Origin: Gaiellales bacterium
Lineage (GTDB): Bacteria > Actinomycetota > Thermoleophilia > Gaiellales > Gaiellaceae
Assembly (NCBI GenBank): GCA_038237235.1
Contig: JBBRYW010000002.1
Location: 12,998 to 76,997, forward strand
Direction: 5' to 3'
DNA: 64,000 bases
In this document: piece after piece, positions 12,460-60,037 of the stretch
Position numbering within the stretch: position 1 is the first letter of the stretch
How the letters are laid out: every line of letters begins with the position of its first letter
Program-made: the position numbers and the translations under genes
The notes under the pieces: model-generated
What the model saw: the letters and a program-made list of their open reading frames with translations, nothing else
Database searches by the model: none
What the model was told of the DNA's origin: nothing

Positions 12460-12530
12460 AGGCGCGGACCGGAGTCGAACCGGTGTGCGAGGCTTTGCAG
12501 GCCTCTGCCTAACCACTCGGCCACCGCGCC
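12460..12530 (-). tRNA. tRNA-Cys (anticodon GCA)
   Basis: The reverse complement is GGCGCGG-TG-GCC..GGC-A-GAGGC-CTGCAAA-GCCTC-GCAC-ACCGG-TTCGACT-CCGGT-CCGCGCC-T. The cloverleaf is complete and CCA is not encoded. Confidence 0.9.
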
Positions 12531-12583
12531 GTCGAGCCCCGTCATCGTATCGGCGGGCCCCGTACGCCCTCGCCTCGGGCCCG

Positions 12584-13210
12584 TCACGCTCGGCGCACAC
12601 GTACATCCCCGGCCGCGACGTCGATCAGGCCGACTGCGAGGATGACCGATGCGGCTTCGAGCGGCGCGCGGGCGCCCAGGCCGGAGACGGCGAATCCCGC
12701 TCCGAGGGAGCCGGCTCCGATTCCGAGCGCCTCGGCAGTCGTGACCCAGGTCATGGCCTCGACTCCCGCGTCCGGCGCCACCCCGTCGATCAACTCGAAG
12801 AGGGAGATCGTCGCTGGCCCGAAGCCGGCGCCCGCGAGCAGCGCGGCTCCCGCGAGGAGCAGGAGCGGCGGCGCGAGCGGAACCACGGTGAGGCCCCCGA
12901 CGAGCCCGGCCGATGCAAGCCGGTAGCGTCGCCACGGGCTTGCCTCCACTCCCGCCGCGCGAAGAGCACGGCGCTCGCCGCGCTACCGAGCCCGAAGGCG
13001 CCGAGCAGGACGCCGCTCAGCCCACGAGCCTCGTTCGCAATCGCCTCCGCCGGCAAACCGACCTCGATCAGGCCGAGCGCGCCCCCGAGTAGAACCGAGA
13101 GTCCGAGCAACTCGCGAAAGAGACGGCGGCGCAGCAGCGCAGGCGCCGGCTGGTCCTCCCGCCTCGCGGGAGCGACGACTACCCTGCTCGCGCTCACGGC
13201 GGGCCTCCTC
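12584..13210 (-). pseudogene. C-terminal half of an MFS transporter, frameshifted near 12950
   Basis: LFRELLGLSVLLGGALGLIEVGLPA...GVLLGAFGLGSAASAVLFARR lies in one frame. RLASAGLVGGLTVVPLAPPLLLLAGAALLAGAGFGPA... lies in another. No N-terminal six-helix half is present. Confidence 0.5.
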
Positions 13211-13259
13211 GTTCTCGCGGTGCACGGCATTCGCCCGCGCCTCTCCAGATCTCGAAGAC

Positions 13260-13985
13260 TCATCGGGCCTGGCGGCTGTAGTCGGCGAGCACCTCCTCGA
13301 TGACGTGTCGGGCGCTCAGCCGCCATCCGAAGCGGAGGCTGGCGAGGTCTGCCTGGGCGCCGTTCGCCTTCGGGGCCTGGACGAGCGTGATGAGCGCCTT
13401 CCAGAGCGCCCAGCCACGGCCACGCGCCCAGGTCGCATCGTCCACGGGAAGCCGGTCCCGGAACGCCTCTCGGCTGTCGCCGAAGAAGAACGTCCACGCG
13501 ACGGTCAGGTCGCAGGCCGGGTCGCCTACTCCCGAGCATCCGAAGTCGATGACGGCACTCAGGCGGCCGTCGACGACGAGCAGGTTGGCGGCAGTGACGT
13601 CTCCGTGGATCCACACCGAGGGGCCGTGCCATGTCGATGCGAGGGCTACTTCCCACACCTCGGTCGCAGCGTCCTTGTCGATCTCCGCCTTCAGGCGAGA
13701 GATCGCCTCTCTCACCTCGCTGTCGTAGGTGGGTAGCTCGCGCGCGACGAGGTGCTGACCTTCGAGGCGGCCCTCCACGAAAGAAGTTGTGCTTGCCGGG
13801 CTCCGTACCGCCTGCGGGATCGACTTTGTAGAGGGCGGCGAGGAAGTCGGCCATGTCGGTCGCGAACCGGTCGAGATCCCCGACTCGATCCGTCGTCGCG
13901 TGCTCGCCCGCGAGCCACTGGTATACGGACCACGGCCTCGGGAACCCGCTCCCGGGGTTCCTGCCCGACCCGCCGCCGTCGCTTC
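13260..13985 (-). pseudogene. Aminoglycoside/phosphotransferase (APH) family gene, 5'-truncated and frameshifted
   Basis: FPRPWSVYQWLAGEHA...MADFLAALYKVDPAGGTEPGKHNFFRGG is in one frame. LPTYDSEVREAI...WIHGDVTAANLLV...IDFG is in the next, with the shift near 13770. An in-frame TGA near 13990 cuts the gene and the ATP-binding N-lobe is absent. Confidence 0.6.
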
Positions 13986-14004
13986 AAAGCGAGGAGTGGG
14001 TTGA

Positions 14005-14741
14005 CGCGTTACCAGATCAAGGCTTACGGCGCAGCGAATAGCAGCTTGCGCAGCGGCGACGAGACGAACGTCGCCAGGTTTTGGTCCGCGAACGTCGTCC
14101 GCCAGTACAACCGGGTCGGACGCGACATCGCCGGCGCGCGCAGTGCCGGCTCGCTCGAGACGGCGCGGCTACTGGCGATGGTCAATGTCATCGGCGCCGA
14201 TGCGCTGATGTCGGGCTTGCACGCCAAGTATCACTTCCTGTTCTGGCGGCCGGTCACGGCGATCGACCCGGCCGCCGTCACCGCGGACGGCTTCGGCCCG
14301 GTACCGGGCTACAACGACGGTAAGCCGGCCACGGCGGAGCAGACGGGCTGGCGGCCGCTCCTGCCGACGCCCAACCATCCGGAATACCCGGCTGCACACG
14401 GCGTCATCACGTCGGCGATGGCCGAGGTGTTCAGCACCTTCCTCGGCACCAACCAGATCGACCTGGACATCCACGGCTTCGAGCCCGCCGGGCCGGCTGG
14501 AAACCTGAACGCGGCGCGGCACTTCAACATGCCCAACGACCTTCTCCAAGAGATCATCGACGCCCGACTCTGGGCAGGGCTGCACTACCGCTTCTCGAGC
14601 GTCGCCGGTGTCGTCCTCGGTCGGAACGTCGCGAAGTACGACCTCAGGCACGCCTTCCACAGCCGGAACGGTGTAGGACGCACCCGTGGGCGCGCCCACA
14701 TGGGCGCGCCCCGATGCCCGACACTCGATTCCACGCTCTGA
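14005..14741 (+). pseudogene. PAP2/vanadium-haloperoxidase-like protein, 5'-truncated
   Basis: ARFWSANVV...HFLFWRPVTAI...NHPEYPAAHG...ARLWAGLHYRFS are the acid phosphatase/haloperoxidase motifs. The expected N-terminal 150 aa or more are missing and no start is present. Confidence 0.55.
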
Positions 14742-14762
14742 ACGTCGACCTCGGGACGGCAG

Positions 14763-14975
14763 ATGACCTCTTCCACGTGGGCCGCATCGTTCGAGGCAGC
14801 AGACATCTCGGCTATGCAGATCTACGAAGACGTGCTCGTGCCGAGGCTCTTCACGCCCTGGGCCCGGCTGCTCCTCGACCGTCTCGACCTAGGGCCGGGT
14901 GAGGCGGTTCTCGACGTTGCGTGCGGACCCGGGTCCGTGACCCGCCTTGCCGCGATCGAAGTCGGCCGTTGCGGC
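14763..14975 (+). pseudogene. N-terminal fragment of a class I SAM-dependent methyltransferase
   Basis: YEDVLVPRLFTPWARLLLDRLDLGPGEAVLDVACGPGSVTRLAA contains motif I. The sequence then degenerates into Arg/Ser-rich text with no post-I motifs. Confidence 0.45.
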
Positions 14976-15280
14976 CGGCGGTCGACGACGCGTTACATGC
15001 CGAGGCCGTCGCGCACCTCGCCTTCGCCCGCCGCGCTCCCTACGCAGCGACGAGAGCAGCTCGTCCTTGCGCTCGAACGAAGGCTCGCGGGCGCGTAGGA
15101 TGTCGCGGTTCTCAAGCGCACGGCCACGCTGTGTTGCCTAGCTCGACACCATCCCGACTACACGCGTACTACACTGGCTGTGCGGGGTGGCAGTCGGTCG
15201 TAGCCGGTTCGCTCGGCGGCGAAACGCCCGCTCCAGCGGGTAATTCCGGGTCGCAGCCGGCTGTAGCGGTTGAGCTTGTA

Positions 15281-15327
15281 TCGGTCTGTCACGCCGGAGG
15301 TCGCGGGTTCGAGTCCCCTCGCTCCCG
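15281..15327 (+). other. tRNA-Asp-like 3' fragment (anticodon arm to acceptor end), not a complete tRNA
   Basis: TCGGT-CTGTCAC-GCCGG-AGGTC-GCGGG-TTCGAGT-CCCCT-CGCTCCC-G. There is no complementary 5' acceptor strand or proper D-arm upstream, and the T-stem has one mismatch. Confidence 0.35.
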
Positions 15328-15645
15328 GAAAGTCCCTGCAAATTTGCTTGTTGTGTTGTTGTGCTGTCGCTTCAGACGCCAGATCGGAGCCGACCACACC
15401 GACTGTCGATCGAGGCAACCCGAAGACGATTTCACAGCCGAATTCGCCCGAGCCGACGGCGACCTCGAAGCGCAACGTGGTCCCGTTGTCGACGCAGGCA
15501 CCACCTCCGCCACACACCTGCCACACGCCCTCTGCCGCGCGGCAGCCCGGTCAGAGCCAGTTCGGTTCGGCAGCGAAACGCCGGCTGTTGCCGGTAGCCA
15601 GCACCACGGCGCTGGGACAAGTCTTGGGACAAAGTTGCGTTTCTA

Positions 15646-15663
15646 GTTCTCAAAATTGAGAAC
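15646..15663 (-). terminator. 7-bp hairpin just beyond the leftmost tRNA-Gly 3' repeat
   Basis: gttctca-aaat-tgagaac is AT-rich relative to its surroundings. It is positioned as a terminator downstream of the (-)-strand tRNA 3' end. Confidence 0.35.
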
Positions 15664-15689
15664 TGAACAGCTTGGTTTGCAGGTCTTTT

Positions 15690-15733
15690 AGAGCGGATGA
15701 AGGGACTCGAACCCTCAACCTTCTGCATGGCAA
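15690..15733 (-). repeat. att-type direct repeat 1: copy of the 3' 44 bp of tRNA-Gly(GCC), one mismatch
   Basis: agagcggatgaagggactcgaaccctcAaccttctgcatggcaa. It is identical to 41542-41585 and 59962-60005 except for A at 15717. Confidence 0.85.
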
Positions 15734-15986
15734 CTCGTCCGGGGCCAGTCGGATTGACGCTACAGCCGCATGGTTGGGCCACTGTTCGTTCAGATACGTC
15801 AGGCTAGATCTGCCTATGCGGGGACAAAGTTCGGGACAAATTACGTTAGCTCCTCTGGCAACTGAGATTCTTGCCGCCTGCGCTGTCGGGGAGCCCGTAC
15901 GCCCCAGTGAAGCGCCCTCGACTCCGGTATCAAGGGCGCCGTGACGGAAGGAGGCGTCGAGTCGCGCCAAGGCCTGGCGGGCTCGT

Positions 15987-17222
15987 TCACACCGGGACCG
16001 CGGCCTCGCGCAGTAGCGCCTCTCTCACCCACTGTTCGTCCGGCTGGCCGGTAATGCCAAGGTCGGTTTTGAAGACGCGGCATGAGAGGGCGAAGTCGTC
16101 ACGCTGGTCGGTTTGCGGGTCGACGTCGACGCCGCCGATACGGATCGTCGGCGAGCCGAGGAAGCGCAGCTCCTGCGCCTTCCTCTGATCCGAGACGTTG
16201 ACGAGCTCGATCCGCGGCTCGATCTCGAGCTCGGCACTCACGCGCTCGACGAGTGCGATTGCAGGATAGTGATTCGGGCAGCCGTCGAAGTAAAGGATCT
16301 CGACGAGCGGGCCGCCGCGTTTCGAGCTGGCGGCCTCTGTTACGAGATCGGCTGGTGGGCAGCAGTCGTGGCTCAAGGCATTCTCCTCGTTCGTGTCGGG
16401 GTTCGTAGTTGCGACTCGCGCATGACCAGACGCGATGGCATGACGACGGCGGGCGGAGCGGTCAGATGCGAGCGCCGCTGCTGCGACGATCGCTGTCGCT
16501 GCGACGGCGATCGCCGATCGGACGGCGAGGCTCTGTTCGCTGTGTCCGAGGCTCACGGCCGCCAGGCCGATTTCGCGGGCCAACAGAACGACGGCAGCGG
16601 CGAGCACGACAGCGCCGGCGAGCCGCGGGACGATGCGAATGATCGGTCGCAGCCGCTGTGCTCCTTCACCGGTGATCGCGGCGGCGAGCGCGACGAGCGC
16701 GAGTACCGTTCCCATCCCGAGTGCGAAGCCGACGAAGCCGCCGATGCGGGTCAGCCACGGCTCGCCGGCCGCGATGCCGAGCGTGAGGATGAAGACCGGC
16801 AGCACGCATGACAGCGAGCCGAGCGCGTAGGCGACACCGAAGCCGAAGACGGTCGAGACGCCGCTGCCAGTGCTCACACGACGGCCGACGTTGATGCCCG
16901 GCGCGTGTCCGGCGGCGAGAAGCACCGTCCCCAGCCAGGCAAGGACGAGCGCAATCAGCATCCCGGCGATCGGCAGATACTGGCCAAGCGCGGAAAAGCC
17001 GAGGCTGAACACGACACCGGCGATGCCGAAGACGGCAAGAAACGCCAGCGTCGCGACGCCTCCCGCCTTGAGCGCGCGCAGCAGGCGCGCCAGCAGGTCG
17101 TCGCCTGAGCCTTCCCCTGTGACGAGCACGGCCGCCCAGCCTGGAAGGAGCGCGAAGCCACAGGGATTGAATGCTGCCAGAGCCCCCGCTGAGAAGGCGA
17201 CGGAAACCGCGCCGCCGCTCAC
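15987..17222 (-). CDS. CcdA/DsbD-type thiol-disulfide transporter fused to a C-terminal thioredoxin-fold (GCPNH) domain
   Basis: 411 aa with TM cysteines in FNPCGFALLP and GSLSCVLPVF. The C-terminal domain is ILYFDGCPNH...FLGSPTIRIGGVD. Confidence 0.7.
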   Translation of the reverse strand: MSGGAVSVAFSAGALAAFNPCGFALLPGWAAVLVTGEGSGDDLLARLLRALKAGGVATLAFLAVFGIAGVVFSLGFSALGQYLPIAGMLIALVLAWLGTVLLAAGHAPGINVGRRVSTGSGVSTVFGFGVAYALGSLSCVLPVFILTLGIAAGEPWLTRIGGFVGFALGMGTVLALVALAAAITGEGAQRLRPIIRIVPRLAGAVVLAAAVVLLAREIGLAAVSLGHSEQSLAVRSAIAVAATAIVAAAALASDRSARRRHAIASGHARVATTNPDTNEENALSHDCCPPADLVTEAASSKRGGPLVEILYFDGCPNHYPAIALVERVSAELEIEPRIELVNVSDQRKAQELRFLGSPTIRIGGVDVDPQTDQRDDFALSCRVFKTDLGITGQPDEQWVREALLREAAVPV

Positions 17223-17830
17223 GACCGGTTGAGAGCGCTCCTGATTTGGTCGGTGCTCAAGCCGATCCCGTGACCGACCTCGCGCCCGCGGGCGTCGAAG
17301 ATCAGATAGCTTTCGATCTGGCGGATGCCGAAGGCGGCGGCGGTGCGCTGGCCTGGGTCGGCCGCGTAGAGAATGCCGTTGCCCGCATGCACGTCATGGC
17401 CGAACGCAGCCAGGCTGGTCGCTGCCGCTACCGGATTCCTGCCCGGCGGCACGTTGAGGTTGATCGCGACGGTGCGAACCCCGTTCTTGCGGAGCGCAGC
17501 CAGCGTGTGAAGCGTGTTCACGCAGCTCGTGCAGTCCTCGATCACGAAGGCTGCGACCGTCGGTTGGCCGACGAGGTCTCGACTGCTGAAGGACGCTCCG
17601 TTCGCGAGCACCGTGCGGAAGCGGCCCGACGCTTGGAGCGCGGCGACCGGCGTCTGCGCTTTCTCGACCTTGCCGCGTCCGCCGAAAGCGACGACGGCGA
17701 CGACGGCGGCCGCACCGAGAGCCAAAGCGATGATCGCGACAGAGAGCAGACGCCGCCGATTCGTGGTCGAGCCGGTTACCTTCTCCGCGATCCCCTGCTG
17801 CTGCTCGCGGCGGCTCTTCTTTGCACTCAT
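17219..17830 (-). CDS. Membrane-anchored TlpA/ResA-like thioredoxin-fold protein (CTSC)
   Basis: Start at the ATG at 17830 (MSAKKSRREQ...), one TM helix, then FVIEDCTSCVNTLHTL. It overlaps the downstream gene by 4 nt. Confidence 0.7.
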   Translation of the reverse strand: MSAKKSRREQQQGIAEKVTGSTTNRRRLLSVAIIALALGAAAVVAVVAFGGRGKVEKAQTPVAALQASGRFRTVLANGASFSSRDLVGQPTVAAFVIEDCTSCVNTLHTLAALRKNGVRTVAINLNVPPGRNPVAAATSLAAFGHDVHAGNGILYAADPGQRTAAAFGIRQIESYLIFDARGREVGHGIGLSTDQIRSALNRS

Positions 17831-17843
17831 CGCGAACCCTCCC

Positions 17844-18041
17844 TCAAGACGCACTCTTCGGGCGCGTTCGGCGCCGTAGGACAACGAACGAGAAGGCCGC
17901 AATCGCGACGACCGCGCCGACGACAAGACCTCCCCAGGCAAGCGCCGCGAGGCTGATGCTGGCGGCGACGAGCAGGGGTAGAGCGGCGCAGCAGACGACC
18001 GCAAGAGAAGCTAGGCCGACGGCTCCGAGACTCGCCCGCAT
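17844..18041 (-). CDS. Small two-helix membrane protein with vicinal Cys pair (MerF/MerT-like putative Hg(II) importer)
   Basis: 65 aa with VVCCAALPLLVA inside TM1. It lies directly downstream of the ArsR-type regulator in the mer-like operon. Confidence 0.5.
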   Translation of the reverse strand: MRASLGAVGLASLAVVCCAALPLLVAASISLAALAWGGLVVGAVVAIAAFSFVVLRRRTRPKSAS

Positions 18042-18419
18042 CTACGCCTTCTCCTTGATCCGGCAGCAGGCGGCAACGTGCTCCTCGTTGTCCTCGAGCA
18101 GCGCATTTGCGAGGTCGAGCATCTTCACGACCCGCTGGTCGGCGATCCGGTTGTAGACCGTCCGGTGCTCGCGCCGGGCCTCGATGAAGCCGCACCAGCG
18201 CAGACAGGCGAGATGGTTGGAGACCTTCGGCTGCGGCTCACCGAGCCGCTCGACAAGCTCCCCAACCGTCAACTCACCCTCCGCCCGCAACAGCGCCAGG
18301 ATGCGCAGTCGGGTCGGGTCGCCGAGACCCCGGAAGTACTTCGCAACGAGGTCGGCTCGCTCAGGAGCGGCCGGCAAGCGGAACGGGGCCTCGAGCGTCG
18401 ACACAGCTGCTCCCTTCAT
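18042..18419 (-). CDS. ArsR/SmtB-family metalloregulator
   Basis: LGDPTRLRILALLRAEGELTVGELVERLGEPQPKVSNHLACLRWCGFI is the wHTH. C-terminal cysteines are in HVAACCRI. Confidence 0.85.
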   Translation of the reverse strand: MKGAAVSTLEAPFRLPAAPERADLVAKYFRGLGDPTRLRILALLRAEGELTVGELVERLGEPQPKVSNHLACLRWCGFIEARREHRTVYNRIADQRVVKMLDLANALLEDNEEHVAACCRIKEKA

Positions 18420-18440
18420 ATCTAGACTATCTTATATCAG
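18420..18440 (-). promoter_or_regulatory. AT-rich operator/promoter motif abutting the arsR-type start codon
   Basis: On the minus strand, CTGATATAAGATAGTCTAGAT sits directly before the ATG. It shares ATAT..AGTCT(T)AGAT-ATG with the site at 21450-21472. No Shine-Dalgarno is present. Confidence 0.35.
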
Positions 18441-18498
18441 AAAGGGTCGGTGCCTGACTCCTAACGAATCCTTGTTGGGTGTCGCTCCTGACCCCTCT

Positions 18499-19860
18499 TC
18501 ATGAAGTCGTGTTCTTCGGAAGCTGCCGCAGCGCGCTCACGTAGGCCTCGCTGAAGGTCGGGAACTGCGCGATCGTGTCTTTGAGCACCGCGACCGGGAT
18601 CTCGGCGCGGATCGCGAGCACCGCCTGGTGGATCCACTCGCCTGCGAGTGGCGCAACCGCCCAGGCGCCTACAACAAGCTCTCGGTCGCGGTCGACGAGC
18701 AGCCCGAACGAGCCGCGCGGGGTCTCCTCGTAGGTGTACGGCCGCGCGATCGCGTTCGGAAGGTCGAGCGTCACTTCGTCGACCGTGAGCCCCTGCTCCT
18801 TCACTTGCGCGGCGGTCAGTCCGACCGCCGCCACCTCCGGGTCGCAGAAGACGACGCGGGGGACGGCGCGGTAGTCGGCGACGGCGTCTTCGCCGAGGAT
18901 GTTCGCCGTTGCCACCCGCGCCTGGTACTTGCCGACGTGGGTGAAGAGCGAGACACCGGTCGCATCGCCGATCCCCCAAACGCCCGTTGCGGCGCGGCAG
19001 TGCTCGTCGATCGGGATGCCTCGCTTACCTGTGTCGACTCCGACGGTCTCGAGGCCGAGGCCCTGGACGCGCGGCCGCCGCCCGGCGGCGATCACGAGCG
19101 CTTCGCCGCGAACCTCGCTGCCGTCGTCGAGCTCGACGACCCGCTCGTCGCCCTCGAGCCGGACACGGATCGCGCGCCTGCCGAGCGCAAGCTGGACACC
19201 GTCGGCCGCAAGCTCTGCGCCGATCAGGCGGCCGATCTCCGGATCCTCGCGGTTGAGCAACGCGTCGGCGCCCTGGACGATCGTGACGTTCGAGCCGAAG
19301 CGGGCGAGCATCTGTCCGAGCTCGACCCCGACCGCGCCGCCGCCGATGAAGACGGCGCTCTTCGGGATCTCCTTCAGCGTCGTCGCCTCCCGGTTTGTCC
19401 AGTAGCCGGCTTCGGCGAGACCCTCGATCGGCGGTATCAGGGGGTCGGAGCCGGTGGCGACGATCACGTGCCCTGTCTCGATCACCTGCCCGTCGACCTC
19501 CACCCGTCCCGGCCCGGCGAGCTTGCCGGAGGACTTGAAGACGGTGACCCCCTGCTCCTCGTAGCCGGCGACGGCACCGGAGTCGTCGAAGTGGCGGATC
19601 ATCCAGTCGCGGTAGGCAGCGACCTGCTTCCAGTCGAGCTCCGGCTCCGACACACCGGCGATCGCAGCACTCTCGTGCCTTGCCTCCGTCGGCCGCAGAA
19701 GCGTCTTCGACGGAATGCAGGCCCAATAGCTGCACTCGCCGCCGACAAGCTCACGCTCGACCAGCGCGACCTTCAGTCCCGCCTCGGCCAGGATTCCCGT
19801 CGCGACCTCGCCGGCAGGCCCCGCGCCGAGGACGACCGCGTCGTAGCGTCCGTTACTCAT
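18499..19860 (-). CDS. Class I pyridine nucleotide-disulfide oxidoreductase (mercuric/mycothione reductase-like paralog)
   Basis: AVVLGAGPAGEVATG and the redox-active GGECSYWACIPSK, plus a dimerisation domain. The ATG at 19860 overlaps the merA stop (ATGA). There is no C-terminal CC pair. Confidence 0.85.
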   Translation of the reverse strand: MSNGRYDAVVLGAGPAGEVATGILAEAGLKVALVERELVGGECSYWACIPSKTLLRPTEARHESAAIAGVSEPELDWKQVAAYRDWMIRHFDDSGAVAGYEEQGVTVFKSSGKLAGPGRVEVDGQVIETGHVIVATGSDPLIPPIEGLAEAGYWTNREATTLKEIPKSAVFIGGGAVGVELGQMLARFGSNVTIVQGADALLNREDPEIGRLIGAELAADGVQLALGRRAIRVRLEGDERVVELDDGSEVRGEALVIAAGRRPRVQGLGLETVGVDTGKRGIPIDEHCRAATGVWGIGDATGVSLFTHVGKYQARVATANILGEDAVADYRAVPRVVFCDPEVAAVGLTAAQVKEQGLTVDEVTLDLPNAIARPYTYEETPRGSFGLLVDRDRELVVGAWAVAPLAGEWIHQAVLAIRAEIPVAVLKDTIAQFPTFSEAYVSALRQLPKNTTS

Positions 19861-50668: not shown

Positions 50669-51274
50669 GTGCCGATCCAACATGCAGTGCTCGCCCTGCT
50701 CGCCACGGGCCCCGCCCACGGCTACGGCCTGAAGGCGAGCTTCGAGGACTCGATCGGCCCGCAGTGGGGCGAGCTCAACATCGGCCACCTCTACCAGGTG
50801 CTCGAGCGCCTGATCCGCGACGAGCTCGTGACGAAGCGCGTCGTCGCGCAGTCGGATCGGCCGGACAAGAACGTCTACCGCCTGACCGAGGCCGGCCGCG
50901 CCGAGCTCGAGCGCTGGCTGGAGACGCCGTTCGTGCGCCAGGGCGGCTACCGAGACGACTTCTTCCTCAAGTTGTTCGCGGCCGCCCGACTCGGCGAGGA
51001 GGAGCTCAGGGGCGTAATCCGCGTCCAGCGCCAGGCTTACATGGGGGAGCTGTCGGCGCTCGCCGAGCTCCGGCTCGAGCACCGCGAGGAGCCGCTCGTC
51101 CGCCTCCTGATCGAGGCGGCGGCCAAGCACGCTGAGGCGAACCTGCAGGTCGTGGAGCTGGCGGAGGTGGCGGCGGCCGAGCTGGTGGCCTCGCAGAGGG
51201 CGCTTCGGGTCGAGGAAGGCTCCGAAGACGAGCTCAGGCCCGAGGCAGCCGGCGAGCGCCACCAGCGAACCTAG
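50669..51274 (+). CDS. PadR-family transcriptional regulator
   Basis: IQHAVLALLATGPAHGYGLKASFEDSIGPQWGELNIGHLYQVLERLIRDELV. It is divergent from the ABC ATPase gene. Confidence 0.85.
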   Translation: MPIQHAVLALLATGPAHGYGLKASFEDSIGPQWGELNIGHLYQVLERLIRDELVTKRVVAQSDRPDKNVYRLTEAGRAELERWLETPFVRQGGYRDDFFLKLFAAARLGEEELRGVIRVQRQAYMGELSALAELRLEHREEPLVRLLIEAAAKHAEANLQVVELAEVAAAELVASQRALRVEEGSEDELRPEAAGERHQRT

Positions 51275-51313
51275 ATTGCCTCTTACATCGTCGCAAGGTA
51301 TGCTTCACTAATC

Positions 51314-51826
51314 ATGGGCCGCGCTCGCACAGTGACCGCGATCATCGTTGCCAGCTGCCTGGTCGTTGCGGCCGACGCAACCGCGACAGTGCGGCTGAAC
51401 AAGGGGATCGGGCGAGTCAACCTCGGCATGACCTCGAGTCAACTGATTCGTACGTTCGGCAAGCCGCTGGGCATTCGCACTGGCGGCCTCTCGCCGGTCG
51501 CCAGACGCTTCTCCACCGATCGGACCTACGTCGAGTACGAGTACTTCTCGAAGAACGGCTACACGGTCGGGCTTGCGAGGCGGAGCGGCAAGATGCGCGT
51601 GGTCTTGGTCGCCGTCTACATCAGCGGGCAGCGCACGCCTCAGGGGATCGGCGTGGGCTCCTTGGCGGGCGACGTCCGCGTCAAGTATCCGAGCGTGCAC
51701 TGCGGACTCCTCGACGAGGTGAGCCAGTCTTGCGTCCTGCCGAGCCGCGCCAAGGCGGAGACGGTCTTCGTCGTGGACACGCTCAGGTCGCGCGTGAGCG
51801 CGGTCGCGGTGCGCGCGCGCACGTGA
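51314..51826 (+). CDS. Secreted hypothetical protein
   Basis: 170 aa with a signal-like N-terminus (TAIIVASCLVVAADATA). It lies between padR and the permease gene. Confidence 0.5.
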   Translation: MGRARTVTAIIVASCLVVAADATATVRLNKGIGRVNLGMTSSQLIRTFGKPLGIRTGGLSPVARRFSTDRTYVEYEYFSKNGYTVGLARRSGKMRVVLVAVYISGQRTPQGIGVGSLAGDVRVKYPSVHCGLLDEVSQSCVLPSRAKAETVFVVDTLRSRVSAVAVRART

Positions 51827-51842
51827 GCTGTGCCTCGCGGGC

Positions 51843-54566
51843 GTGCTGAGATTCCTCGCCGCGAACCTCCGCCACCGCCCAAGCCGTGCGGTGGCTTTCG
51901 GCGCAGCCATCCTCGTCGCCGCAGTCTCTTTCGTGCTCCTCACCTCGGCGGCCAAGACGTCCGACCTCCGCGTGCGCGGCTCTGTCACGCAGAACTTCCG
52001 AAACGCCTATGACATCCTCGTACGCCCGCGCGGCTCCTTCACCAAGATCGAGCGCGAGAGCGGGCTTGTTCAGGCCAACTACCTGAGCGGCATCTTCGGT
52101 GGGATCACGCTGAGGCAGTACGGCGAGGTCAAGCAGATCCGCGGCGTTCAGGTAGCGGCGCCAATCGCCAACGTCGGCTACATCTTCCCCTTCGTCAACA
52201 AAGCGGTTCTGATCGACGATCTCGTCTCTGGCGCTCCCGCGCAGATGTTCCGACTGAAGCAGTCGTACGTCGCTCAGCGCGGCCTGTCTCGCTACCCAGC
52301 GAACGACTGGTACGTGTACTACACGACGCGCGACCGCCTGCTCTACGACCAGGGCGGCCTGCACCAGGTCCTGCCGGATGGACGCATGGCCGACGTCTGC
52401 AAGAGCTTCGCGAACGAGATTCCCTCTGAAGGCGGCCCATTCCGCCGCCCCTCCTACATGAGCTGCTACTCCCGGCGCTCACCGGGGGAGGACTCCTCAG
52501 CATACAACAGCGATTTCCCAGTCGGTCGGCCCAGCGCGGTGATTGGATTCTACTTTCCGGTACTGCTCGCGGCGATCGACCCGGTTCAGGAGGCTCGATT
52601 GACGAATCTCGACCGCACGATTACCGCCGGGCGGTTCCTGAAGCCTCACGAGCGACCTCGGGTGGGACGCTTCGGGGGTAATTTCGTACCCATCATTGCG
52701 AGCGCGCGACCCTACCTCGACGAGCACCTTTCGATCGAGGTGTCGCGATTGCCAGTCCTCCCTGCAACACCGTTCGCCCTTCGGGTCGGCGGGCCGGACG
52801 CGTACCGCTTCGTCACCCACCTGCCGGCGGGCAAGCTCCTGGCCACGAAGAGAGTCTCGCTCGTTCGCGCCTACGAGCGACTCCTGAGAAGCCGCTTATT
52901 CTCCGATATCTATTGGACACCTTCGAACGTGCGCTACCGCCGAGCTACTGGCGGTCGGCTCTCGGCTATCACGACAGCCAATCCAGAGTCAATCTGGAAA
53001 TCACATATCTACACAGGAGGCTACTTCGCCCCGCCGCACGACAACGCGGACGCACAGTTTCGACGTCTTTACGCCTACAACGGGCGGAATACGTTCGACA
53101 ACCGCGGCGTCTACCGAACCCCGGCTTTTCGGCTTCGAGGCCGCTACGACCCCGCCAAGCTCCCCGGCTTCAGCCCGCTCTCGCGCCTGCCGATGGAGAC
53201 TTACTACCCGCCGCTTGTCGAGGGCGGCGATGCCCGCAGCAGGCGCCTGCTGAAGGGAAAGCCGCTCCTGCCGACGCAGAACGTCGGCGACTACATCCAG
53301 CAGCCGCCGCTGTTTCTGACGACGCTCGAGGGAATGCGGCCGTTCCTCAACCCGGAGTTCTTCCCGGGCGCGAGCGCGAGGGCGCCGATCTCGGTGATCC
53401 GGATCCGCGTTGCTAACGTCAAAGGCCCCGACCCCGAGAGCCGCGCGCGCATCAAGGCGGTCGCGCTCGAGATCCGCGACCGAACCGGCCTCGACGTCGA
53501 CATCACGGCCGGCTCCTCGCCGCGCGAGCTCTTGATCGACCTGCCGGCGGGCAAGTTCGGCCGCCCGGAGCTGCTCTTGAAGGAGGGCTGGGTGAAGAAG
53601 GGCGTCTCGGTCACTTTCTTGAAAGCGCTCGACCGTAAGCGCCTTTTGCTCTTGGCGCTGATCCCGCTCACCTGCGGCTTCTTCCTCATCAACGGTGCCT
53701 TCGCCGCCGCACGGGCGAGGAGACGGGAGCTGGGGACGCTGCTCTGCCTCGGCTGGCCGCGGCGGGCGATCTTCACCGCTCTACTCGGCGAGCTGGCGCT
53801 CGTCGGGCTCGTCGCTGGGTTGCTCGGAACGGCGGTCGCGGCAGCGATCGTTGAGGGCTTCTCGCTCGATGTCTCGCTCGCTCGCACCTTGCTCGTCGTC
53901 CCGCTCGCGCTCGTCCTGCCCATGCTGGCGGGGCTGGTGCCGGCGCTTCGCGCCTCACGCGAGGCGCCGCTCGCCGCCGTGGCGCCGCCGGTCGTCGCCT
54001 CGACGAGCGTCCGCTCAGTGCGAAATCTGCACGGGCTCGTCCTCGCAAACCTCGCCCGCGTGCCGCAGCGGACGCTGGTCGGCGTTCTCGGCATGGTCGT
54101 CGGCGTCGCGGCGCTGACGCTGATCGTCGGCATCGACCACGCCTTCCAGGGCACGCTCGTCGGCACCCTGCTCGGCGACGCGATCCTGTTTCGGATCTCG
54201 GGGCTCGACTTCGTCGCCCTGGGAGTGACGATCGCGCTTGCCGCCTGCTCGCTGGCCGACGTTCTCTTCCTCAACCTGAGCGAGCGCTCAGCCGAGCTCG
54301 TCACCCTGCGTACGCTCGGCTGGCGCCAGCGCCACCTGGCGCGGGTAGTCGCGCTCGAGGCGGTTGGGATGGGCCTCATCGGCGCGCTCGGCGGGGCGCT
54401 GCTGGGCCTCGCGCTCGGGGCGGCGCTTGGGATCTCGCTCCTGCCCTTGCTGGCCGCAGCCGGGCTCGCGGGGGCGGGAGGCCTCCTCGTCAGCCTCGTC
54501 GTCAGCCTGCTGCCGCTGACCCGGGTGGCGGGACTAACGGCACCGGTGGTGCTTGCAGAGGAATGA
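51843..54566 (+). CDS. Large FtsX/MacB-type ABC transporter permease
   Basis: 907 aa with an N-terminal TM helix, a long extracytoplasmic domain and two C-terminal FtsX-like four-helix bundles. Confidence 0.8.
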   Translation: MLRFLAANLRHRPSRAVAFGAAILVAAVSFVLLTSAAKTSDLRVRGSVTQNFRNAYDILVRPRGSFTKIERESGLVQANYLSGIFGGITLRQYGEVKQIRGVQVAAPIANVGYIFPFVNKAVLIDDLVSGAPAQMFRLKQSYVAQRGLSRYPANDWYVYYTTRDRLLYDQGGLHQVLPDGRMADVCKSFANEIPSEGGPFRRPSYMSCYSRRSPGEDSSAYNSDFPVGRPSAVIGFYFPVLLAAIDPVQEARLTNLDRTITAGRFLKPHERPRVGRFGGNFVPIIASARPYLDEHLSIEVSRLPVLPATPFALRVGGPDAYRFVTHLPAGKLLATKRVSLVRAYERLLRSRLFSDIYWTPSNVRYRRATGGRLSAITTANPESIWKSHIYTGGYFAPPHDNADAQFRRLYAYNGRNTFDNRGVYRTPAFRLRGRYDPAKLPGFSPLSRLPMETYYPPLVEGGDARSRRLLKGKPLLPTQNVGDYIQQPPLFLTTLEGMRPFLNPEFFPGASARAPISVIRIRVANVKGPDPESRARIKAVALEIRDRTGLDVDITAGSSPRELLIDLPAGKFGRPELLLKEGWVKKGVSVTFLKALDRKRLLLLALIPLTCGFFLINGAFAAARARRRELGTLLCLGWPRRAIFTALLGELALVGLVAGLLGTAVAAAIVEGFSLDVSLARTLLVVPLALVLPMLAGLVPALRASREAPLAAVAPPVVASTSVRSVRNLHGLVLANLARVPQRTLVGVLGMVVGVAALTLIVGIDHAFQGTLVGTLLGDAILFRISGLDFVALGVTIALAACSLADVLFLNLSERSAELVTLRTLGWRQRHLARVVALEAVGMGLIGALGGALLGLALGAALGISLLPLLAAAGLAGAGGLLVSLVVSLLPLTRVAGLTAPVVLAEE

Positions 54567-57707: not shown

Positions 57708-58205
57708 TCAAAGGTCAAGGCCAACCCCGCGGTCGAGCTCAACGACGCGGCGCATCGTCTCCAAGGTGATCGCGTCGGCGGCGCCGTCGGCTTCGAGCAT
57801 GCGGACGAGGTCGCCGGCGCTGGCCACCTCAGTGCGCAGGCCGTCGCCGAGGGATTCTCTCCGCGCTCGGTGGCGCAGGTCTTCGTAGCCTCGGGTGCCG
57901 GTGGGTCGCGCGACGATCTTGATCTCGCCGGCGTCGCTCTCCAACAGGACGACCGGCTCCCGATCTGAGTCGAGCTCGCGGACGTCGAGCGCCTTCCCAT
58001 CCGGGCGGCGAGCGTTCAGGTTCTCGAGCGCCTCTCGGAGCTTCTCGAGGTTCTGCGGCCGCAGCGACGGGCTTAGGTCGAGGCCGCGGGTGACCTCGTC
58101 CGAGCCTTGGATCACCCGCGCGAGCGCTCCGATCACGACGAAGTAGACGCGGGCCTCCTGGAGCTCGCGTAGGACCGCGTACGGATCGAAACGGGTCGAG
58201 CTCAC
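57708..58205 (-). CDS. Minimal nucleotidyltransferase-fold-like protein paired with an XRE HTH gene
   Basis: 165 aa with FVVIGALARVIQGSDEVTRGLDLS. This resembles the G.xA...G..R.T.D.D motif, but the first Asp is replaced by Gly. It overlaps the upstream HTH gene by 4 nt. Confidence 0.5.
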   Translation of the reverse strand: MSSTRFDPYAVLRELQEARVYFVVIGALARVIQGSDEVTRGLDLSPSLRPQNLEKLREALENLNARRPDGKALDVRELDSDREPVVLLESDAGEIKIVARPTGTRGYEDLRHRARRESLGDGLRTEVASAGDLVRMLEADGAADAITLETMRRVVELDRGVGLDL

Positions 58206-58495
58206 TGTCCCTCGATCCGGTCGACCATCGCGCGAAGCCGCTCCTGAGGCGTCAGCCGACTCACCTCCTGAATCCGGGCGTCGCGTTCGAGGTCACGCTC
58301 GAACGGGACCAGTGCGAGCGAGAGGTCGAAGCCGCACGCCTGAAGGACGCGGCGCAGCGTCGAAAAGCCCGGCTCGACAGAGTCCGTCTCCCAGCGGGCG
58401 ATCGAACTCCGCGGCACGCCAAGCTTCTCTGCGAGCTGTTCCTGCGAGAGCTCGGCGCGCAGCCTAGCCGAGCGCATGAGATCGCCGGTCGTCAT
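58202..58495 (-). CDS. XRE-family helix-turn-helix protein
   Basis: LMRSARLRAELSQEQLAEKLGVPRSSIARWETDSVEPGFSTLRRVL. Confidence 0.8.
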   Translation of the reverse strand: MTTGDLMRSARLRAELSQEQLAEKLGVPRSSIARWETDSVEPGFSTLRRVLQACGFDLSLALVPFERDLERDARIQEVSRLTPQERLRAMVDRIEGQ

Positions 58496-58572
58496 CGACC
58501 GGCGAGGACCCGCCGCTTGGGACGCATCTTTAGTACGTGTCGCACTTCTGCTATCATAGCCGCTCGAGGCGA

Positions 58573-58779
58573 ATGACGACCTTGCCGACCTTTCTCACCG
58601 CCGATGAGCTCGCAGCGATCCTGCGCTGCCAGCCCGAGAAGGTCTACCGACTCGCCGCTCACGGAGAGCTTCCCTCCTACAAAGTTCAGGGTCGGCGACT
58701 GTTCGACCACGACGAAGTCGCGCGGTGGCTCGAGGGGCGTCGCGCCGGCGTGCGCTTCGGGGCCCGCGGAGCTGCCTGA
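58573..58779 (+). CDS. xis: Excisionase-family (MerR-like HTH) DNA-binding protein
   Basis: LTADELAAILRCQPEKVYRLAAHGELPSYKVQGRRLFDHDEVARWL. It lies immediately upstream of the integrase. Confidence 0.75.
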   Translation: MTTLPTFLTADELAAILRCQPEKVYRLAAHGELPSYKVQGRRLFDHDEVARWLEGRRAGVRFGARGAA

Positions 58780-58789
58780 GGGGAAGGCT

Positions 58790-59902
58790 ATGGCGTCGAT
58801 CCGCTCCTATCGGACCGCAGGTGGTGACCGCCGCTACTCCGTCCGCTACCGCGACCAGGCCGGGAGTAACCGCTCCCAGACGTTCTCGCTCCACAAGGAC
58901 GCGCAGGCGTTCAAGCTCGATGTCGAGCGCCGCCATCAGGCCGGCCTCCTCTACCAGGCGCCGCCCGAACGCTTCGAGGATGTCGCGCAGGCGTGGCTCG
59001 AGCGGTTCGTGATCGGCGCTGCCGGCCGTGTTCGCCCCCGCCCGAAGACGATCCGCGTCGCCGAGGACTGTCTGCGCTACCTCTCGCCGCTCAACGACCT
59101 CGCGATCGAGCGCATTCGCCGGCCGGTGGTCGAAGATCTCCTCGCGAGCATCGCGACCCATGCGCCGCGCCGCGCGGAGATGACGCTCACGCTGCTCAAG
59201 CGGATCCTCAAGGCAAGCGAGGAGCGCGGCCAGCAGGTCGACCGGACTGTGTACGGGACGCGCATCGCACGGGCGGAGGAGCGCGAGCCGCGCTTCCTCA
59301 CCTGGGACGAGGTGCTCGAGCTCCAGTCCTGGATGCCGGAGTACGTCTCTCGGATCGTCCCACTCGCCGTCCTGACGATGCTGCGCCGCGGCGAGATCCT
59401 CGGCCTTCGAGACGTCGACGTCGACCTCTCGAGCGGCTCGATCTCCGCTTTCTCGCAGCGCCAGGATGGCAAGCGCGTCCAGATGAAGACGCGCGCGGGA
59501 CGGCGAACAGTCGACGTCGGACCGGTCGCCGTCAACCTCCTGCGCGAGCAGCTACTCGCCCGGACGCCGACCGCCGAGGGCTACCTCTTCCCCGCTCCCG
59601 CGGGCGCGGCCTTCGACGGCGACAACTTCATGTCGCGCGTCTTCAAGCCGGCCGCCCGCCACGCCGGTATGCCCGAGCTCACCTTTCACGACCTCCGCCA
59701 CACGGGCGCCTCGCTGATGATCGCCGCGAGCTGTCACGTCAAGGTGATCGCGGAGCGGATGGGTCACTCGGACGGTGGGACGCTTGTCCTCAGACGGTAT
59801 GGACACCTCTACAAGGGCGCAGGCCGACAGGCGGCGATTGCGCTGGAATCGCAGGTTTTCGCCGGAATTGAAAAATTCCGCCGTACCACCCACGTACCAT
59901 GA
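58790..59902 (+). CDS. int: Tyrosine-type site-specific integrase
   Basis: The ATG at 58790 follows GAGGGGAAGG. The N-terminal SAM-like domain is YSVRYRDQAGSNRSQTF. The catalytic region is MLRRGEILGL...HDLRHTGASLMI...MGHSDGGTLVLRRYGHLY. It ends 60 nt from the tRNA. Confidence 0.9.
   Translation: MASIRSYRTAGGDRRYSVRYRDQAGSNRSQTFSLHKDAQAFKLDVERRHQAGLLYQAPPERFEDVAQAWLERFVIGAAGRVRPRPKTIRVAEDCLRYLSPLNDLAIERIRRPVVEDLLASIATHAPRRAEMTLTLLKRILKASEERGQQVDRTVYGTRIARAEEREPRFLTWDEVLELQSWMPEYVSRIVPLAVLTMLRRGEILGLRDVDVDLSSGSISAFSQRQDGKRVQMKTRAGRRTVDVGPVAVNLLREQLLARTPTAEGYLFPAPAGAAFDGDNFMSRVFKPAARHAGMPELTFHDLRHTGASLMIAASCHVKVIAERMGHSDGGTLVLRRYGHLYKGAGRQAAIALESQVFAGIEKFRRTTHVP
59883..59901 (+). repeat. Terminal 19-bp repeat of island 2 (right copy)
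   Basis: gtaccacccacgtaccatg inside the last codons of int. Its partner is at 41707-41725. Confidence 0.6.
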
Positions 59903-59961
59903 ACTGCGACTCTGGTAACAGTCTAGAAAACACGAAACCGCCCAGTTGCGGCGATTTCATC

Positions 59962-60005
59962 AGAGCGGATGAAGGGACTCGAACCCTCGACCTTCTGCAT
60001 GGCAA
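59962..60005 (-). repeat. att-type direct repeat 3 (within the intact tRNA-Gly)
   Basis: The same 44 bp as at 41542-41585. It spans the acceptor 3' strand, the T-arm and the 3' half of the anticodon arm. Confidence 0.9.
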
Positions 60006-60037
60006 GCAGACGCTCTAGCCAACTGAGCTACATCCGC
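59964..60037 (-). tRNA. tRNA-Gly (anticodon GCC)
   Basis: The reverse complement is GCGGATG-TA-GCTC-AGTTGGCTA-GAGC-G-TCTGC-TTGCCAT-GCAGA-AGGTC-GAGGG-TTCGAGT-CCCTT-CATCCGC-T. The cloverleaf is complete. Confidence 0.9.

What the first reader, a model, noticed from the sequence alone, without database searches (positions are those of the whole stretch)
12460..60037. About 47 kb of accessory DNA stacked at one tRNA-Gly: three direct repeats define tandem islands between tRNA-Cys and tRNA-Gly
**The repeats.** The 3' 44 bp of tRNA-Gly(GCC), agagcggatgaagggactcgaaccctcgaccttctgcatggcaa, occur three times in the same orientation. The copies are at 59962 (inside the intact gene), 41542 (exact) and 15690 (one mismatch). 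This is the classic footprint of successive site-specific integrations into the same tRNA 3' end.

**The two islands differ.** The distal island (15734-41541) has no recombinase and many broken genes, so it looks older or immobilised. The proximal island (41586-59961) keeps int and xis.

**Flanking homology.** The roughly 70 bp to the left of copies 1 and 2 are also similar to each other: cttgggacaaagttgc.tttct.gttctca...tttgcagg.ctttt.

**The leftmost stretch.** The 3 kb between copy 1 and tRNA-Cys consist only of gene fragments, so a third, almost erased element may lie there.

**Original arrangement.** In many actinobacteria tRNA-Gly(GCC) and tRNA-Cys(GCA) are immediate neighbours. That would make the whole interval inserted DNA. 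This last point is inference.
Basis: partly seen in the sequence, partly recalled or inferred. Interest (0 to 1): 0.7.

Follow-up and report, generated by a model that had tools for sequence, protein, structure and literature searches.

The report
Stacked mobile islands at tRNA-Gly
In this soil actinobacterium (order Gaiellales), about 44 kb of foreign DNA sits behind one tRNA-Gly gene as two islands inserted one after the other, a well-known way for bacterial genomes to grow, seen here in a little-studied lineage.

Summary
The 44-bp 3' part of tRNA-Gly(GCC) occurs three times in direct orientation (15690, 41542, 59962).

**Proximal island (41586-59961).**
- It is a complete integrative mobilizable element: MobF relaxase/helicase, HTH_3 regulator, excisionase and tyrosine integrase.
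- A 19-bp motif sits in both arms.
- Relatives of the integrase lie next to tRNA-Gly in other Gaiellaceae, and one 8.4-kb relative is bounded by the same 45-bp repeat.

**Distal island (15734-41541).**
- No recombinase or relaxase was found, but its genes are mostly intact, not broken.
- Its bounding repeat is really 112 bp (97/112 identical).
- Its left end carries a module also found, twice, around unrelated cargo in a metagenome contig: a degenerate tRNA 5' half plus GGGACAAAG motifs.

**What is wrong in the finding.**
- tRNA-Cys and tRNA-Gly are not native neighbours. In the closest genome they are 8.65 kb apart with a transporter gene between them; the window keeps only a truncated, frameshifted piece of that gene (12611-13185).
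- A third, erased element is possible but unproven.
- No truly empty site was found.

This is tandem accretion of a mobilizable element next to an integrase-less island, a known process: a new member of a known kind.

The parts
12459..12530 (-). tRNA-Cys(GCA), the left landmark. It is chromosomal and not part of the islands.
   Evidence: ARAGORN; Rfam tRNA 61.9 bits; syntenic with L001.
12611..13185 (-). Remnant of a chromosomal MFS-like membrane protein gene. It covers residues 191-382 of the intact 402-aa L001 protein, in two reading frames, and the N-terminal half is deleted. Synteny with L001 ends here.
   Evidence: tblastn of the L001 protein gives two hits, 12943-12611 and 13185-12943, in frames -1 and -2. 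BLASTN synteny stops at 13193.
13186..15621 (.). Degraded segment of uncertain origin. It holds a partial APH domain, a PAP2/VCPO-like ORF (13752-14741), a CMAS-like fragment, and a conserved ~180-nt element 'X' (15157-15327) that ends in a tRNA-Asp-like 3' half. It is either a remnant of a third element or old neighbourhood DNA.
   Evidence: Pfam partial matches; absent from L001; X is shared with L100 and L088.
15622..15689 (+). 68-bp arm left of copy 1. It carries GGGACAAAG (15626-15634) and the palindrome GTTCTCA-AAAT-TGAGAAC (15646-15663).
   Evidence: 54/68 identical to 41474-41541; also present in L086 (twice) and L089; motif search.
15690..15733 (+). Core copy 1 (1 mismatch), the left junction of the distal island.
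15734..15862 (+). Left-end module of the distal island. It holds a degenerate tRNA-Gly 5' half (to 15769), then GGGACAAAG (15821) and GGGACAAAT (15833).
   Evidence: Rfam tRNA model matches 15692-15769 at full length, below threshold (24.7 bits, E 0.015). 83-85% identical to two units in L086 and 74% to L089.
15734..41541 (.). Distal island, 25.8 kb, with no recombinase or relaxase found. Cargo is mostly thiol/redox and stress genes: a DsbD-like/DF-family protein, redoxin, ArsR, three pyridine-nucleotide disulfide oxidoreductases, radical SAM + methyltransferase + CDP-alcohol transferase, AhpC-like, DUF3179, Mo-oxidoreductase + cytochrome b561, two ECF sigma factors, DsrE-like, and an ABC-2 transporter.
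   Evidence: Pfam and NCBIfam; no integrase trace; absent from L001.
41474..41541 (+). 68-bp arm left of copy 2, the right end of the distal island. GGGACAAAG lies at 41478-41486, at the same offset (-64) as in copy 1.
41542..41585 (+). Core copy 2 (exact). It is the junction between the distal island and the proximal element (attL of the proximal element).
   Evidence: The sequence to its right (GGCGTCTGCGCGG) is shared with the attL of the L082 element.
41586..41768 (+). P' arm of the proximal element, with the 19-bp arm motif GTACCATCCACGTACCATG at 41707-41725.
   Evidence: The same 19-mer occurs only once more in the window, at 59883. L082 has a co-varying version at the same offsets in both arms.
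41769..44681 (+). MobF-family relaxase fused to a RecD-like helicase (970 aa).
   Evidence: Pfam TrwC 3.3e-78 and AAA_30 2.9e-50. NCBIfam MobF 236 bits against a cutoff of 100. About 31% identity to MobF relaxases of Corynebacterium plasmids.
46502..49339 (+). Cargo: a ubiquitin-like conjugation operon. It comprises DUF2604 (Ubl), a CEHH metal-binding protein, a JAB-like protein, and a Prok-E2_C + ThiF fusion. Matches to BilB, BilC and BilD are weak.
   Evidence: Pfam; PADLOC.
49842..54566 (.). Cargo: ABC ATPase (-), PadR regulator, a 170-aa ORF, and a 907-aa FtsX-type permease.
   Evidence: Pfam.
57708..58495 (-). Conserved backbone genes: a ~165-aa protein of unknown function and an HTH_3 (XRE-type) regulator.
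   Evidence: Pfam. The same gene pair precedes xis-int in L082-L084, L097, L098 and L101; L085 shows only the HTH_3 gene.
58537..58779 (+). Excisionase (HTH_17).
   Evidence: Pfam PF12728, 2e-13. Same position in relatives.
58790..59902 (+). Tyrosine integrase, 370 aa. The last ~20 residues of its relatives are encoded in another frame (59856-59915), so there is a frameshift near the C-terminus. The ancestral stop is at 59916-59918.
   Evidence: Pfam Phage_integrase; 90% identical to P0001 over residues 1-368 by tblastn (93% in the homologue search), with residues 356-375 in a second frame.
59883..59961 (+). P arm of the proximal element, with the arm motif GTACCACCCACGTACCATG (59883-59901). 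It is conserved with L081 and L082.
59962..60037 (-). Core copy 3 (59962-60005) inside the intact tRNA-Gly(GCC) (59963-60037); attR of the proximal element.

Best explanation
**Overall.** The DNA between about 15.7 kb and tRNA-Gly(GCC) is a tandem array. It was built by repeated site-specific integration into the anticodon-loop-to-3'-end segment of that tRNA gene.

**Proximal element (41586-59961, 18.4 kb).**
- It is the most recent arrival and an integrative mobilizable element.
- Its tyrosine integrase, helped by an HTH_17 excisionase, recombines an attP with the tRNA. This attP consists of a P arm, the 44-bp core and a P' arm, and each arm carries a GTACCA...ACGTACCA motif.
- The element's own copy of the core rebuilds the tRNA. 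This is an inference from how such elements work in general.
- Its MobF relaxase/helicase would nick an oriT, so that a conjugation apparatus encoded elsewhere can transfer the excised circle (inferred).

**Distal island (15734-41541, 25.8 kb).**
- It was already at the tRNA when the proximal element arrived. The proximal element inserted into the rebuilt tRNA and pushed the distal island outward.
- It has no integrase or relaxase of its own, but it keeps att-like ends of a different type. These consist of a 68-bp arm and a left-end module with GGGACAAAG motifs and a degenerate tRNA 5' half.
- It therefore behaves like an integrase-less, cis- or trans-mobilizable island.

**Left of the array.** A deletion removed half of a chromosomal transporter gene. 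If a third element ever existed there, the deletion took most of it.
For: **Shown.**
- Three direct copies of the core, one of them inside the intact tRNA.
- The proximal element has relaxase, regulator, xis and int in the same order as relatives in L082-L085, L097, L098 and L101.
- 329 integrase homologues at E <= 1e-20. Those that carry a source name are from Gaiellaceae or other Thermoleophilia/Actinomycetota.
- In L081-L084 and L097 the integrase abuts tRNA-Gly(GCC).
- L082 is an 8.4-kb element bounded by an exact 45-bp repeat of the tRNA-Gly 3' end.
- The P and P' arms are conserved between the window and L081/L082.
- The 19-bp arm motif occurs only at 41707 and 59883 in the window. In L082 it is replaced by a co-varying motif at the same offsets in both arms.
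- L098 shows int + core followed by other DNA instead of the tRNA, so tandem arrays recur at this site.
- Both islands are absent from the closest genome, L001, which is syntenic on both sides.
- The distal island's end module occurs twice, 8.4 kb apart, around unrelated cargo in L086, and once in L089.
- The three exact GGGACAAAG copies in 64 kb all lie within 130 bp of cores 1 and 2.

**Weaker support.**
- The islands have slightly lower GC than the flanks: 0.68 against 0.69. GC3 is 0.82-0.84 in the islands against 0.88 in the left flank and 0.85 in the right flank, so the difference is marginal on the right.

**Literature.** The three-step accretion model and the CIME concept are described in PMC5704250. 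Tandem arrays at tDNAs are catalogued in PMC4383910.
Against: - No empty site, excised circle or restored attB was observed.
- The order of arrival is inferred from geometry only.
- The integrase has a C-terminal frameshift, so the proximal element may no longer be active. It could also be a sequencing error.
- The distal island shows no remnant of an integrase or relaxase, so its origin by decay of a self-mobile element is not shown.
- Its arms differ from those of the proximal element, so mobilization by the neighbour's integrase is doubtful.
- A decayed version of the 68-bp arm lies next to the intact tRNA-Gly in L001. This could mean the arm is native flank rather than element DNA.
- No T4SS or coupling protein was found in the window, so transfer is inferred only from the relaxase.
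Confidence: 0.8

Rival explanations
1. Only the proximal element is an insertion. The distal block is old, lineage-specific chromosomal DNA. Copy 1 with its 68-bp flank is a decayed paralogue of the tRNA-Gly gene (an old duplication of the gene with its downstream flank), not an att site.
For: - Copy 1 plus 36 nt to its right matches the Rfam tRNA model over its full length, below threshold.
- The flank is shared with copy 2 and, in decayed form, with the real tRNA-Gly of L001.
- No recombinase lies in the distal block.
- Composition is close to the chromosome.
Against: - Copies 1 and 2 stop resembling the tRNA at exactly the same base, tRNA position 33, which is the boundary expected of an anticodon-loop att core.
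- The same flank + core + right-hand module brackets unrelated cargo in L086 (two units) and occurs in L089.
- The block is absent from L001.
- GGGACAAAG motifs on both sides of the core look like arm sites of one attP.
Confidence: 0.1
2. The two islands arrived together as one pre-assembled composite, transferred from a donor in which they were already in tandem, rather than by two integrations in this lineage.
For: - Transfer of composite CIME-ICE tandems is documented (PMC5704250).
- The relaxase gene lies at the junction with the distal island.
- Both islands are missing from L001.
Against: - Composite integration would need recombination that uses copy 1's junction. Copy 1 has arms of a different type from those of the proximal element's integrase.
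- Copy 1 has a mismatch and its flank is 79% identical to copy 2's flank, while copies 2 and 3 are identical. This suggests different ages.
Confidence: 0.08
3. The arrangement is an assembly artefact: contigs from different strains were joined at the shared tRNA fragment.
For: - The lineage is known mainly from metagenome-assembled genomes.
- An exact 44-bp repeat could mislead a short-k-mer assembler.
Against: - The junctions have the structure expected of real att sites, with arm motifs at the correct offsets on both ends of the proximal element.
- Flanking core genes show no excess of frameshifts against L001.
- Similar tandem structures occur in independent contigs.
Confidence: 0.02

Closest known systems
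Tandem accretion of an ICE or IME with a CIME (ICESt1/ICESt3 and CIMEs at fda in Streptococcus thermophilus: Pavlovic 2004, Bellanger 2011. IME_Sag2603_tRNAlys. Streptomyces pathogenicity islands: Zhang & Loria 2017. All as cited in PMC5704250.)
   Same: A self-integrating element lies next to the target gene and an integrase-less island lies further out. They are separated by direct copies of the att core. The incoming element used the rebuilt attR.
   Different: - Here the two islands have different arm sequences, so cis-mobilization by the neighbour is not evident.
- No trace of decayed integration or transfer genes is left in the outer island.
- The host is an uncultured Gaiellales lineage, and nothing has been tested experimentally.
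tDNA genomic islands with an anticodon-centred att site (Williams 2002; Islander database, PMC4383910)
   Same: A 3' tRNA fragment is displaced in direct orientation. The identity block runs from the anticodon loop to the 3' end. A tyrosine integrase lies next to the rebuilt tRNA.
   Different: Islander counts tandem arrays only when each member has its own integrase. The distal island would fail that filter.
MobF (TrwC/TraA-type) relaxase-helicases of actinobacterial plasmids, such as the Corynebacterium MobF plasmids
   Same: The same two-domain architecture, an N-terminal TrwC relaxase plus a RecD-like helicase. NCBIfam MobF is above its cutoff.
   Different: Only about 31% identity. The gene is carried on an integrated element with int/xis rather than on a plasmid.
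AICEs (actinomycete integrative and conjugative elements such as pSAM2 and SLP1)
   Same: Actinobacterial elements that integrate into tRNA 3' ends with int-xis at one end.
   Different: AICEs transfer double-stranded DNA with an FtsK-like TraB and carry a Rep protein. No such gene was found here; the element carries a relaxase instead.

Membership tests
tDNA-integrated genomic island (Islander criteria) | An intact tRNA gene plus a displaced fragment of it in direct orientation on the same replicon | tested here: met
   three direct copies, one inside the intact tRNA-Gly.
tDNA-integrated genomic island (Islander criteria) | An integrase gene inside the island | tested here: met
   Met for 41586-59961. 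Not met for 15734-41541.
tDNA-integrated genomic island (Islander criteria) | The identity block ends at a canonical sublocation (anticodon loop or T-stem) | tested here: met
   The core ends at 60005, which is tRNA position 33. The anticodon lies at 60001-60003.
Integrative mobilizable element (IME) | Own integration/excision module | tested here: met
   int and HTH_17 xis. Caveat: a frameshift in the last ~20 codons of int.
Integrative mobilizable element (IME) | A relaxase and/or oriT, but no complete conjugation apparatus | tested here: met
   MobF relaxase. No VirB4, VirD4 or FtsK-type match in the 20 ORFs scanned with Pfam. Several ORFs have no match at all, so absence holds only as far as Pfam and NCBIfam can see.
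Integrative mobilizable element (IME) | Excision and mobilization in trans by a conjugative element | not testable with these tools
   Needs read-level junction data or mating experiments.
Cis-mobilizable element (CIME) | Retains attL and attR | tested here: met
   A 112-bp direct repeat, 97/112 identical, with arm motifs.
Cis-mobilizable element (CIME) | [quoted passage not shown] | tested here: inconclusive
   None are present. No remnants were seen either, so 'lost' as opposed to 'never had' is open.
Cis-mobilizable element (CIME) | Its att sites are recognised by the integrase of the neighbouring element | tested here: inconclusive
   The core is identical, but the arms differ: GGGACAAAG type against GTACCA type.
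AICE | FtsK/SpoIIIE-like TraB and a replication initiator | tested here: not met
   No such Pfam or NCBIfam match; a relaxase is present instead.

The most novel reading that the evidence does not exclude
The distal island may belong to a family of integrase-less islands in Gaiellales that keep their own complete recombination module. The module consists of a 68-bp arm, the tRNA-Gly core, a degenerate tRNA 5' half, and GGGACAAAG motifs on both sides. Such islands would spread and stack at tRNA-Gly by using an integrase encoded elsewhere. They would be satellites of an as yet unseen helper, not decayed leftovers.
Probability: 0.25. Interest if true: 0.5.

Novelty: new member of a known kind. 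Interest (0 to 1): 0.3.

Why it matters
- It documents how genomes of Gaiellales, abundant but almost uncultured soil actinobacteria, gain accessory genes. A family of relaxase-bearing integrative elements targets one tRNA-Gly and carries variable cargo: a ubiquitin-like Bil-type operon here, and a SMODS protein (a CBASS-type domain) with a methyltransferase in a relative.
- It gives exact att sites and arm motifs that could be used to find such elements in metagenomes.
- The process itself, tandem accretion at a tRNA gene, is well known.

Tried and rejected
- **Window proteins in the assembly index.** Exact look-ups of the window's integrase with two different start codons found nothing, so the source genome is not in that collection.
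- **Search for an empty site.**
  - The closest genome, L001, has a different island (an HATPase protein plus a BsuBI/PstI restriction-modification system) between the transporter gene and tRNA-Gly.
  - L100 has an intact tRNA-Gly but 1.2 kb of unrelated DNA before the shared element X.
  - The spacers between X and the core in the window, L088 and L100 show no similarity above shuffled controls.
- **Homologues of the distal island's last gene (40667-41181).** They exist only on short contigs without the att region.
- **Search for an autonomous version of the distal island's module.** There were no matches in viral contigs or plasmids, and only ordinary tRNA-Gly genes in phages.
- **Integrase remnant to the left of copies 1 and 2.** tblastn finds none.
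- **Broken genes as sequencing error.** The alignment of the core genes with L001 shows no excess of frameshifts. An apparent in-frame stop at 35877 is the normal stop codon of a complete DsrE-like gene.
- **Rfam.** It finds no known RNA family apart from the two tRNAs.

Full report
**1.
- ARAGORN finds two tRNA genes, tRNA-Cys(GCA) at 12459-12530 and tRNA-Gly(GCC) at 59963-60037, both on the minus strand. Rfam confirms both.
All copies are in the same orientation, and none is expected in shuffled sequence.
- The block runs from the 3' end of the tRNA to position 33 in the anticodon loop. The anticodon complement GGC lies at 60001-60003.
- That is the 'anticodon-centred' class of tRNA attachment sites catalogued in Islander (PMC4383910).

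**2. Organism and native context.**
- A flanking oxidoreductase gene recovered a Gaiellales metagenome-assembled genome (L001, JBBSGR010000016) at 90% protein identity. More distant hits are Gaiellaceae, Thermoleophilaceae and Solirubrobacteraceae.
- L001 aligns with the window at 84-91% nucleotide identity over 946-13193 and again over 59963-60877. It brackets the region on both sides.
- In L001, tRNA-Cys and tRNA-Gly are 8.65 kb apart. Next to tRNA-Cys lies an intact 402-aa membrane transporter gene.
- The window keeps only residues 191-382 of that protein, split over two frames (12611-13185), and synteny stops there.
- The rest of the L001 interval holds an HATPase protein and a BsuBI/PstI-type restriction-modification pair, with a single copy of the core.
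- The two tRNA genes are therefore not native neighbours. The 655 bp next to tRNA-Cys are chromosomal, and L001 is not an empty site but carries a different island.
- Two further contigs (L099, L100) share the right-hand gene order GST, EamA, two small genes, an RVT_3 gene (and, in L100, tRNA-Gly; L099 ends within the tRNA). This gene order overlaps that beside the integrase relatives described below. The tRNA-Gly locus is thus conserved across the family.

**3. The proximal island (41586-59961) is a complete integrative mobilizable element.** From left to right it carries:
- a 970-aa MobF relaxase fused to a RecD-like helicase (Pfam TrwC 3e-78; NCBIfam MobF 236 bits against a cutoff of 100);
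- a ubiquitin-like conjugation operon: DUF2604, a CEHH protein, a JAB-like protein and a Prok-E2_C/ThiF fusion, with weak PADLOC matches to BilB, BilC and BilD;
- an ABC ATPase, a PadR regulator and an FtsX permease, then a MauE/DoxX protein;
- a 165-aa protein and an HTH_3 regulator on the minus strand;
- an HTH_17 excisionase at 58537-58779;
- a tyrosine integrase at 58790-59902.

No VirB4, VirD4 or FtsK-type protein was found. It is therefore not an AICE or a self-transmissible ICE as far as these libraries can tell.

**4. Relatives define the family and its att site.**
- The integrase has 329 homologues at E <= 1e-20. They are about 375 aa long, and those that carry a source name are from Gaiellaceae or other Thermoleophilia/Actinomycetota.
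- In L081-L084 and L097 the gene abuts tRNA-Gly(GCC).
- L082 is an 8.4-kb element with TrwC relaxase, MauE, a 166-aa protein, HTH_3, HTH_17 and int. It is bounded by an exact 45-bp repeat of the tRNA-Gly 3' end.
- The arm between int and the core is conserved among the window, L081 and L082. The sequence right of copy 2 shares GGCGTCTGCGCGG with the L082 attL.
- The window has a 19-bp repeat, GTACCAYCCACGTACCATG, at 41707 (122 bp after the core) and at 59883 (79-61 bp before the core), and nowhere else.
- L082 has GTACGG..ACGTACGG at the same two offsets. The two arms of each element match each other while differing between elements, which is what arm-type integrase sites should do.
- Cargo differs among relatives. 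L101 carries a SMODS protein and a large methyltransferase.
- In L098 the integrase and core are followed by other DNA rather than the tRNA. That is an independent tandem array at the same site.

**5. Caveat on activity.** The last ~20 residues of the relatives' integrases are encoded in a second frame at 59856-59915. The window's gene therefore has a frameshift near its end. The catalytic tyrosine region (LRRYGHLY) lies upstream of it. Whether the frameshift is real or a sequencing error cannot be decided here.

**6. The distal island (15734-41541).**
- About 35 ORFs were scanned. There is no integrase, transposase or relaxase and no tblastn trace of the proximal-type integrase.
- The cargo is dominated by thiol/redox and stress functions.
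- Its bounding repeat is longer than 44 bp. 15622-15733 and 41474-41585 are 97/112 identical.
- The 68-bp arm carries GGGACAAAG at -64 in both copies. The same motif recurs twice, 88 and 100 bp to the right of copy 1. These are the only exact copies in the window.
- The 36 nt to the right of copy 1 complete a degenerate tRNA (Rfam tRNA 24.7 bits, below threshold).
- A metagenome scan for flank + core found contig L086 with two ~410-bp units of arm + core + right-hand module. They lie 8.4 kb apart and are 87.5% identical to each other and 83-85% to the window's copy 1 region. They bracket unrelated cargo (Asp23, an LPG-synthase-like protein and BrkB) with no recombinase.
- L089 has one such unit.
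- The distal island thus carries the end module of a recurring type of integrase-less island.

**7. What the 68-bp arm is remains open.**
- *Reading A, arm of the distal-type elements.* The arm shares its motif with the right-hand module. It always accompanies the core. It is only about 61-66% identical to the L001 flank, while the neighbouring DNA is 84-91% identical.
- *Reading B, native flank downstream of tRNA-Gly.* A decayed version lies next to the intact tRNA-Gly in L001. A conserved ~180-nt element (15157-15327) just left of it also lies near tRNA-Gly cores in L088 and near the intact tRNA-Gly in L100.
- The spacers between that element and the core are unrelated in the three genomes. 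I put A at roughly 0.55.

**8. Mechanism and comparison with what is known.**
- The geometry fits the three-step model reviewed by Guédon et al. (PMC5704250). An element integrates at the 3' end of a target gene. It loses or lacks its mobility genes while keeping its att sites. A second element then integrates into the rebuilt target.
- Tandem arrays at tRNA genes are catalogued in Islander: 125 arrays of two or more and 4 of three or more among 3919 islands.
- Composition differs only slightly between the islands and the flanks, as expected for exchange among related hosts.

**9. Verdict.**
- The finding is real and its main interpretation is right, with three corrections.
  - The accessory block is about 44 kb, and at most 46.8 kb.
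  - The tRNA genes were not adjacent.
  - The distal island is not degraded.
- It is a new member of a known kind of structure. It is of moderate interest for the biology of an understudied lineage, and for the possibility that the distal-type islands form a satellite family.

Noticed in passing
window 15157-15327 (+), with a partial copy at 15499-15586; L100 3532-3712; L088 222-266: A conserved ~180-nt non-coding element. Its last ~50 nt look like the 3' half of a tRNA-Asp(GUC): anticodon stem-loop CCGGC-CTGTCAC-GCCGG, then a T-arm and acceptor strand. ARAGORN and Rfam call no tRNA here. It lies 0.26-1.2 kb downstream of the tRNA-Gly core in three genomes, with unrelated spacers between. Its function is unknown.
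   Followed up: partly
window 46502-49339 (+): A ubiquitin-like conjugation operon carried as cargo of the mobilizable element. It comprises DUF2604 (Ubl), a CEHH metal-binding protein, a JAB-like protein, and a Prok-E2_C + ThiF fusion. PADLOC matches to BilB, BilC and BilD are only weak, so it may be a divergent Bil-type antiphage system.
   Followed up: partly
window 59856-59918: The integrase gene changes frame about 20 codons before its end compared with its relatives (P0001, P0017). The conserved tail ...STYxExxLW is encoded in the other frame. This is either a real inactivating or attenuating mutation or a homopolymer sequencing error.
   Followed up: partly
window 15646-15663; L086 (both units): A perfect 7-bp palindrome, GTTCTCA-N4-TGAGAAC, lies between the GGGACAAAG motif and the core. 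It is kept in both L086 units and decayed in copy 2 and in L001. It may be a binding site for a dimeric protein or a hairpin that follows the tRNA.
   Followed up: no
L086 about 1100-1190 and 9550-9640: Each repeat unit in L086 ends with a tRNA-Ser(CGA)-like 3' part: a long variable arm, a T-arm GGTTCAAATCC and an acceptor strand. ARAGORN does not call it. It may be the remnant of another attachment site.
   Followed up: no
window 15987-38326 (distal island cargo): An unusual concentration of thiol/redox genes:
- a DsbD-like membrane protein fused to a DF-family (seleno)protein domain, here with Cys;
- a redoxin and an ArsR regulator;
- three pyridine-nucleotide disulfide oxidoreductases;
- AhpC-like and DsrE-like proteins;
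- a Mo-oxidoreductase with cytochrome b561;
- two ECF sigma factors with a zf-HC2 anti-sigma factor;
- a radical SAM enzyme (HMPTM zinc ribbon) with a methyltransferase and a CDP-alcohol phosphatidyltransferase.
   Followed up: no
L001 12513-19887: In the closest genome, the same interval downstream of tRNA-Gly holds an HATPase protein and a BsuBI/PstI-type restriction enzyme with a methyltransferase. The site is a hotspot for defence cargo in that genome as well.
   Followed up: partly
L098 11129-11300; L101 1-8226: Other members of the integrase family. In L098 the element is not next to the intact tRNA, so another island has been inserted after it. L101 carries a SMODS (CBASS-type) protein, a 1282-aa protein and a 1004-aa methyltransferase as cargo.
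   Followed up: partly
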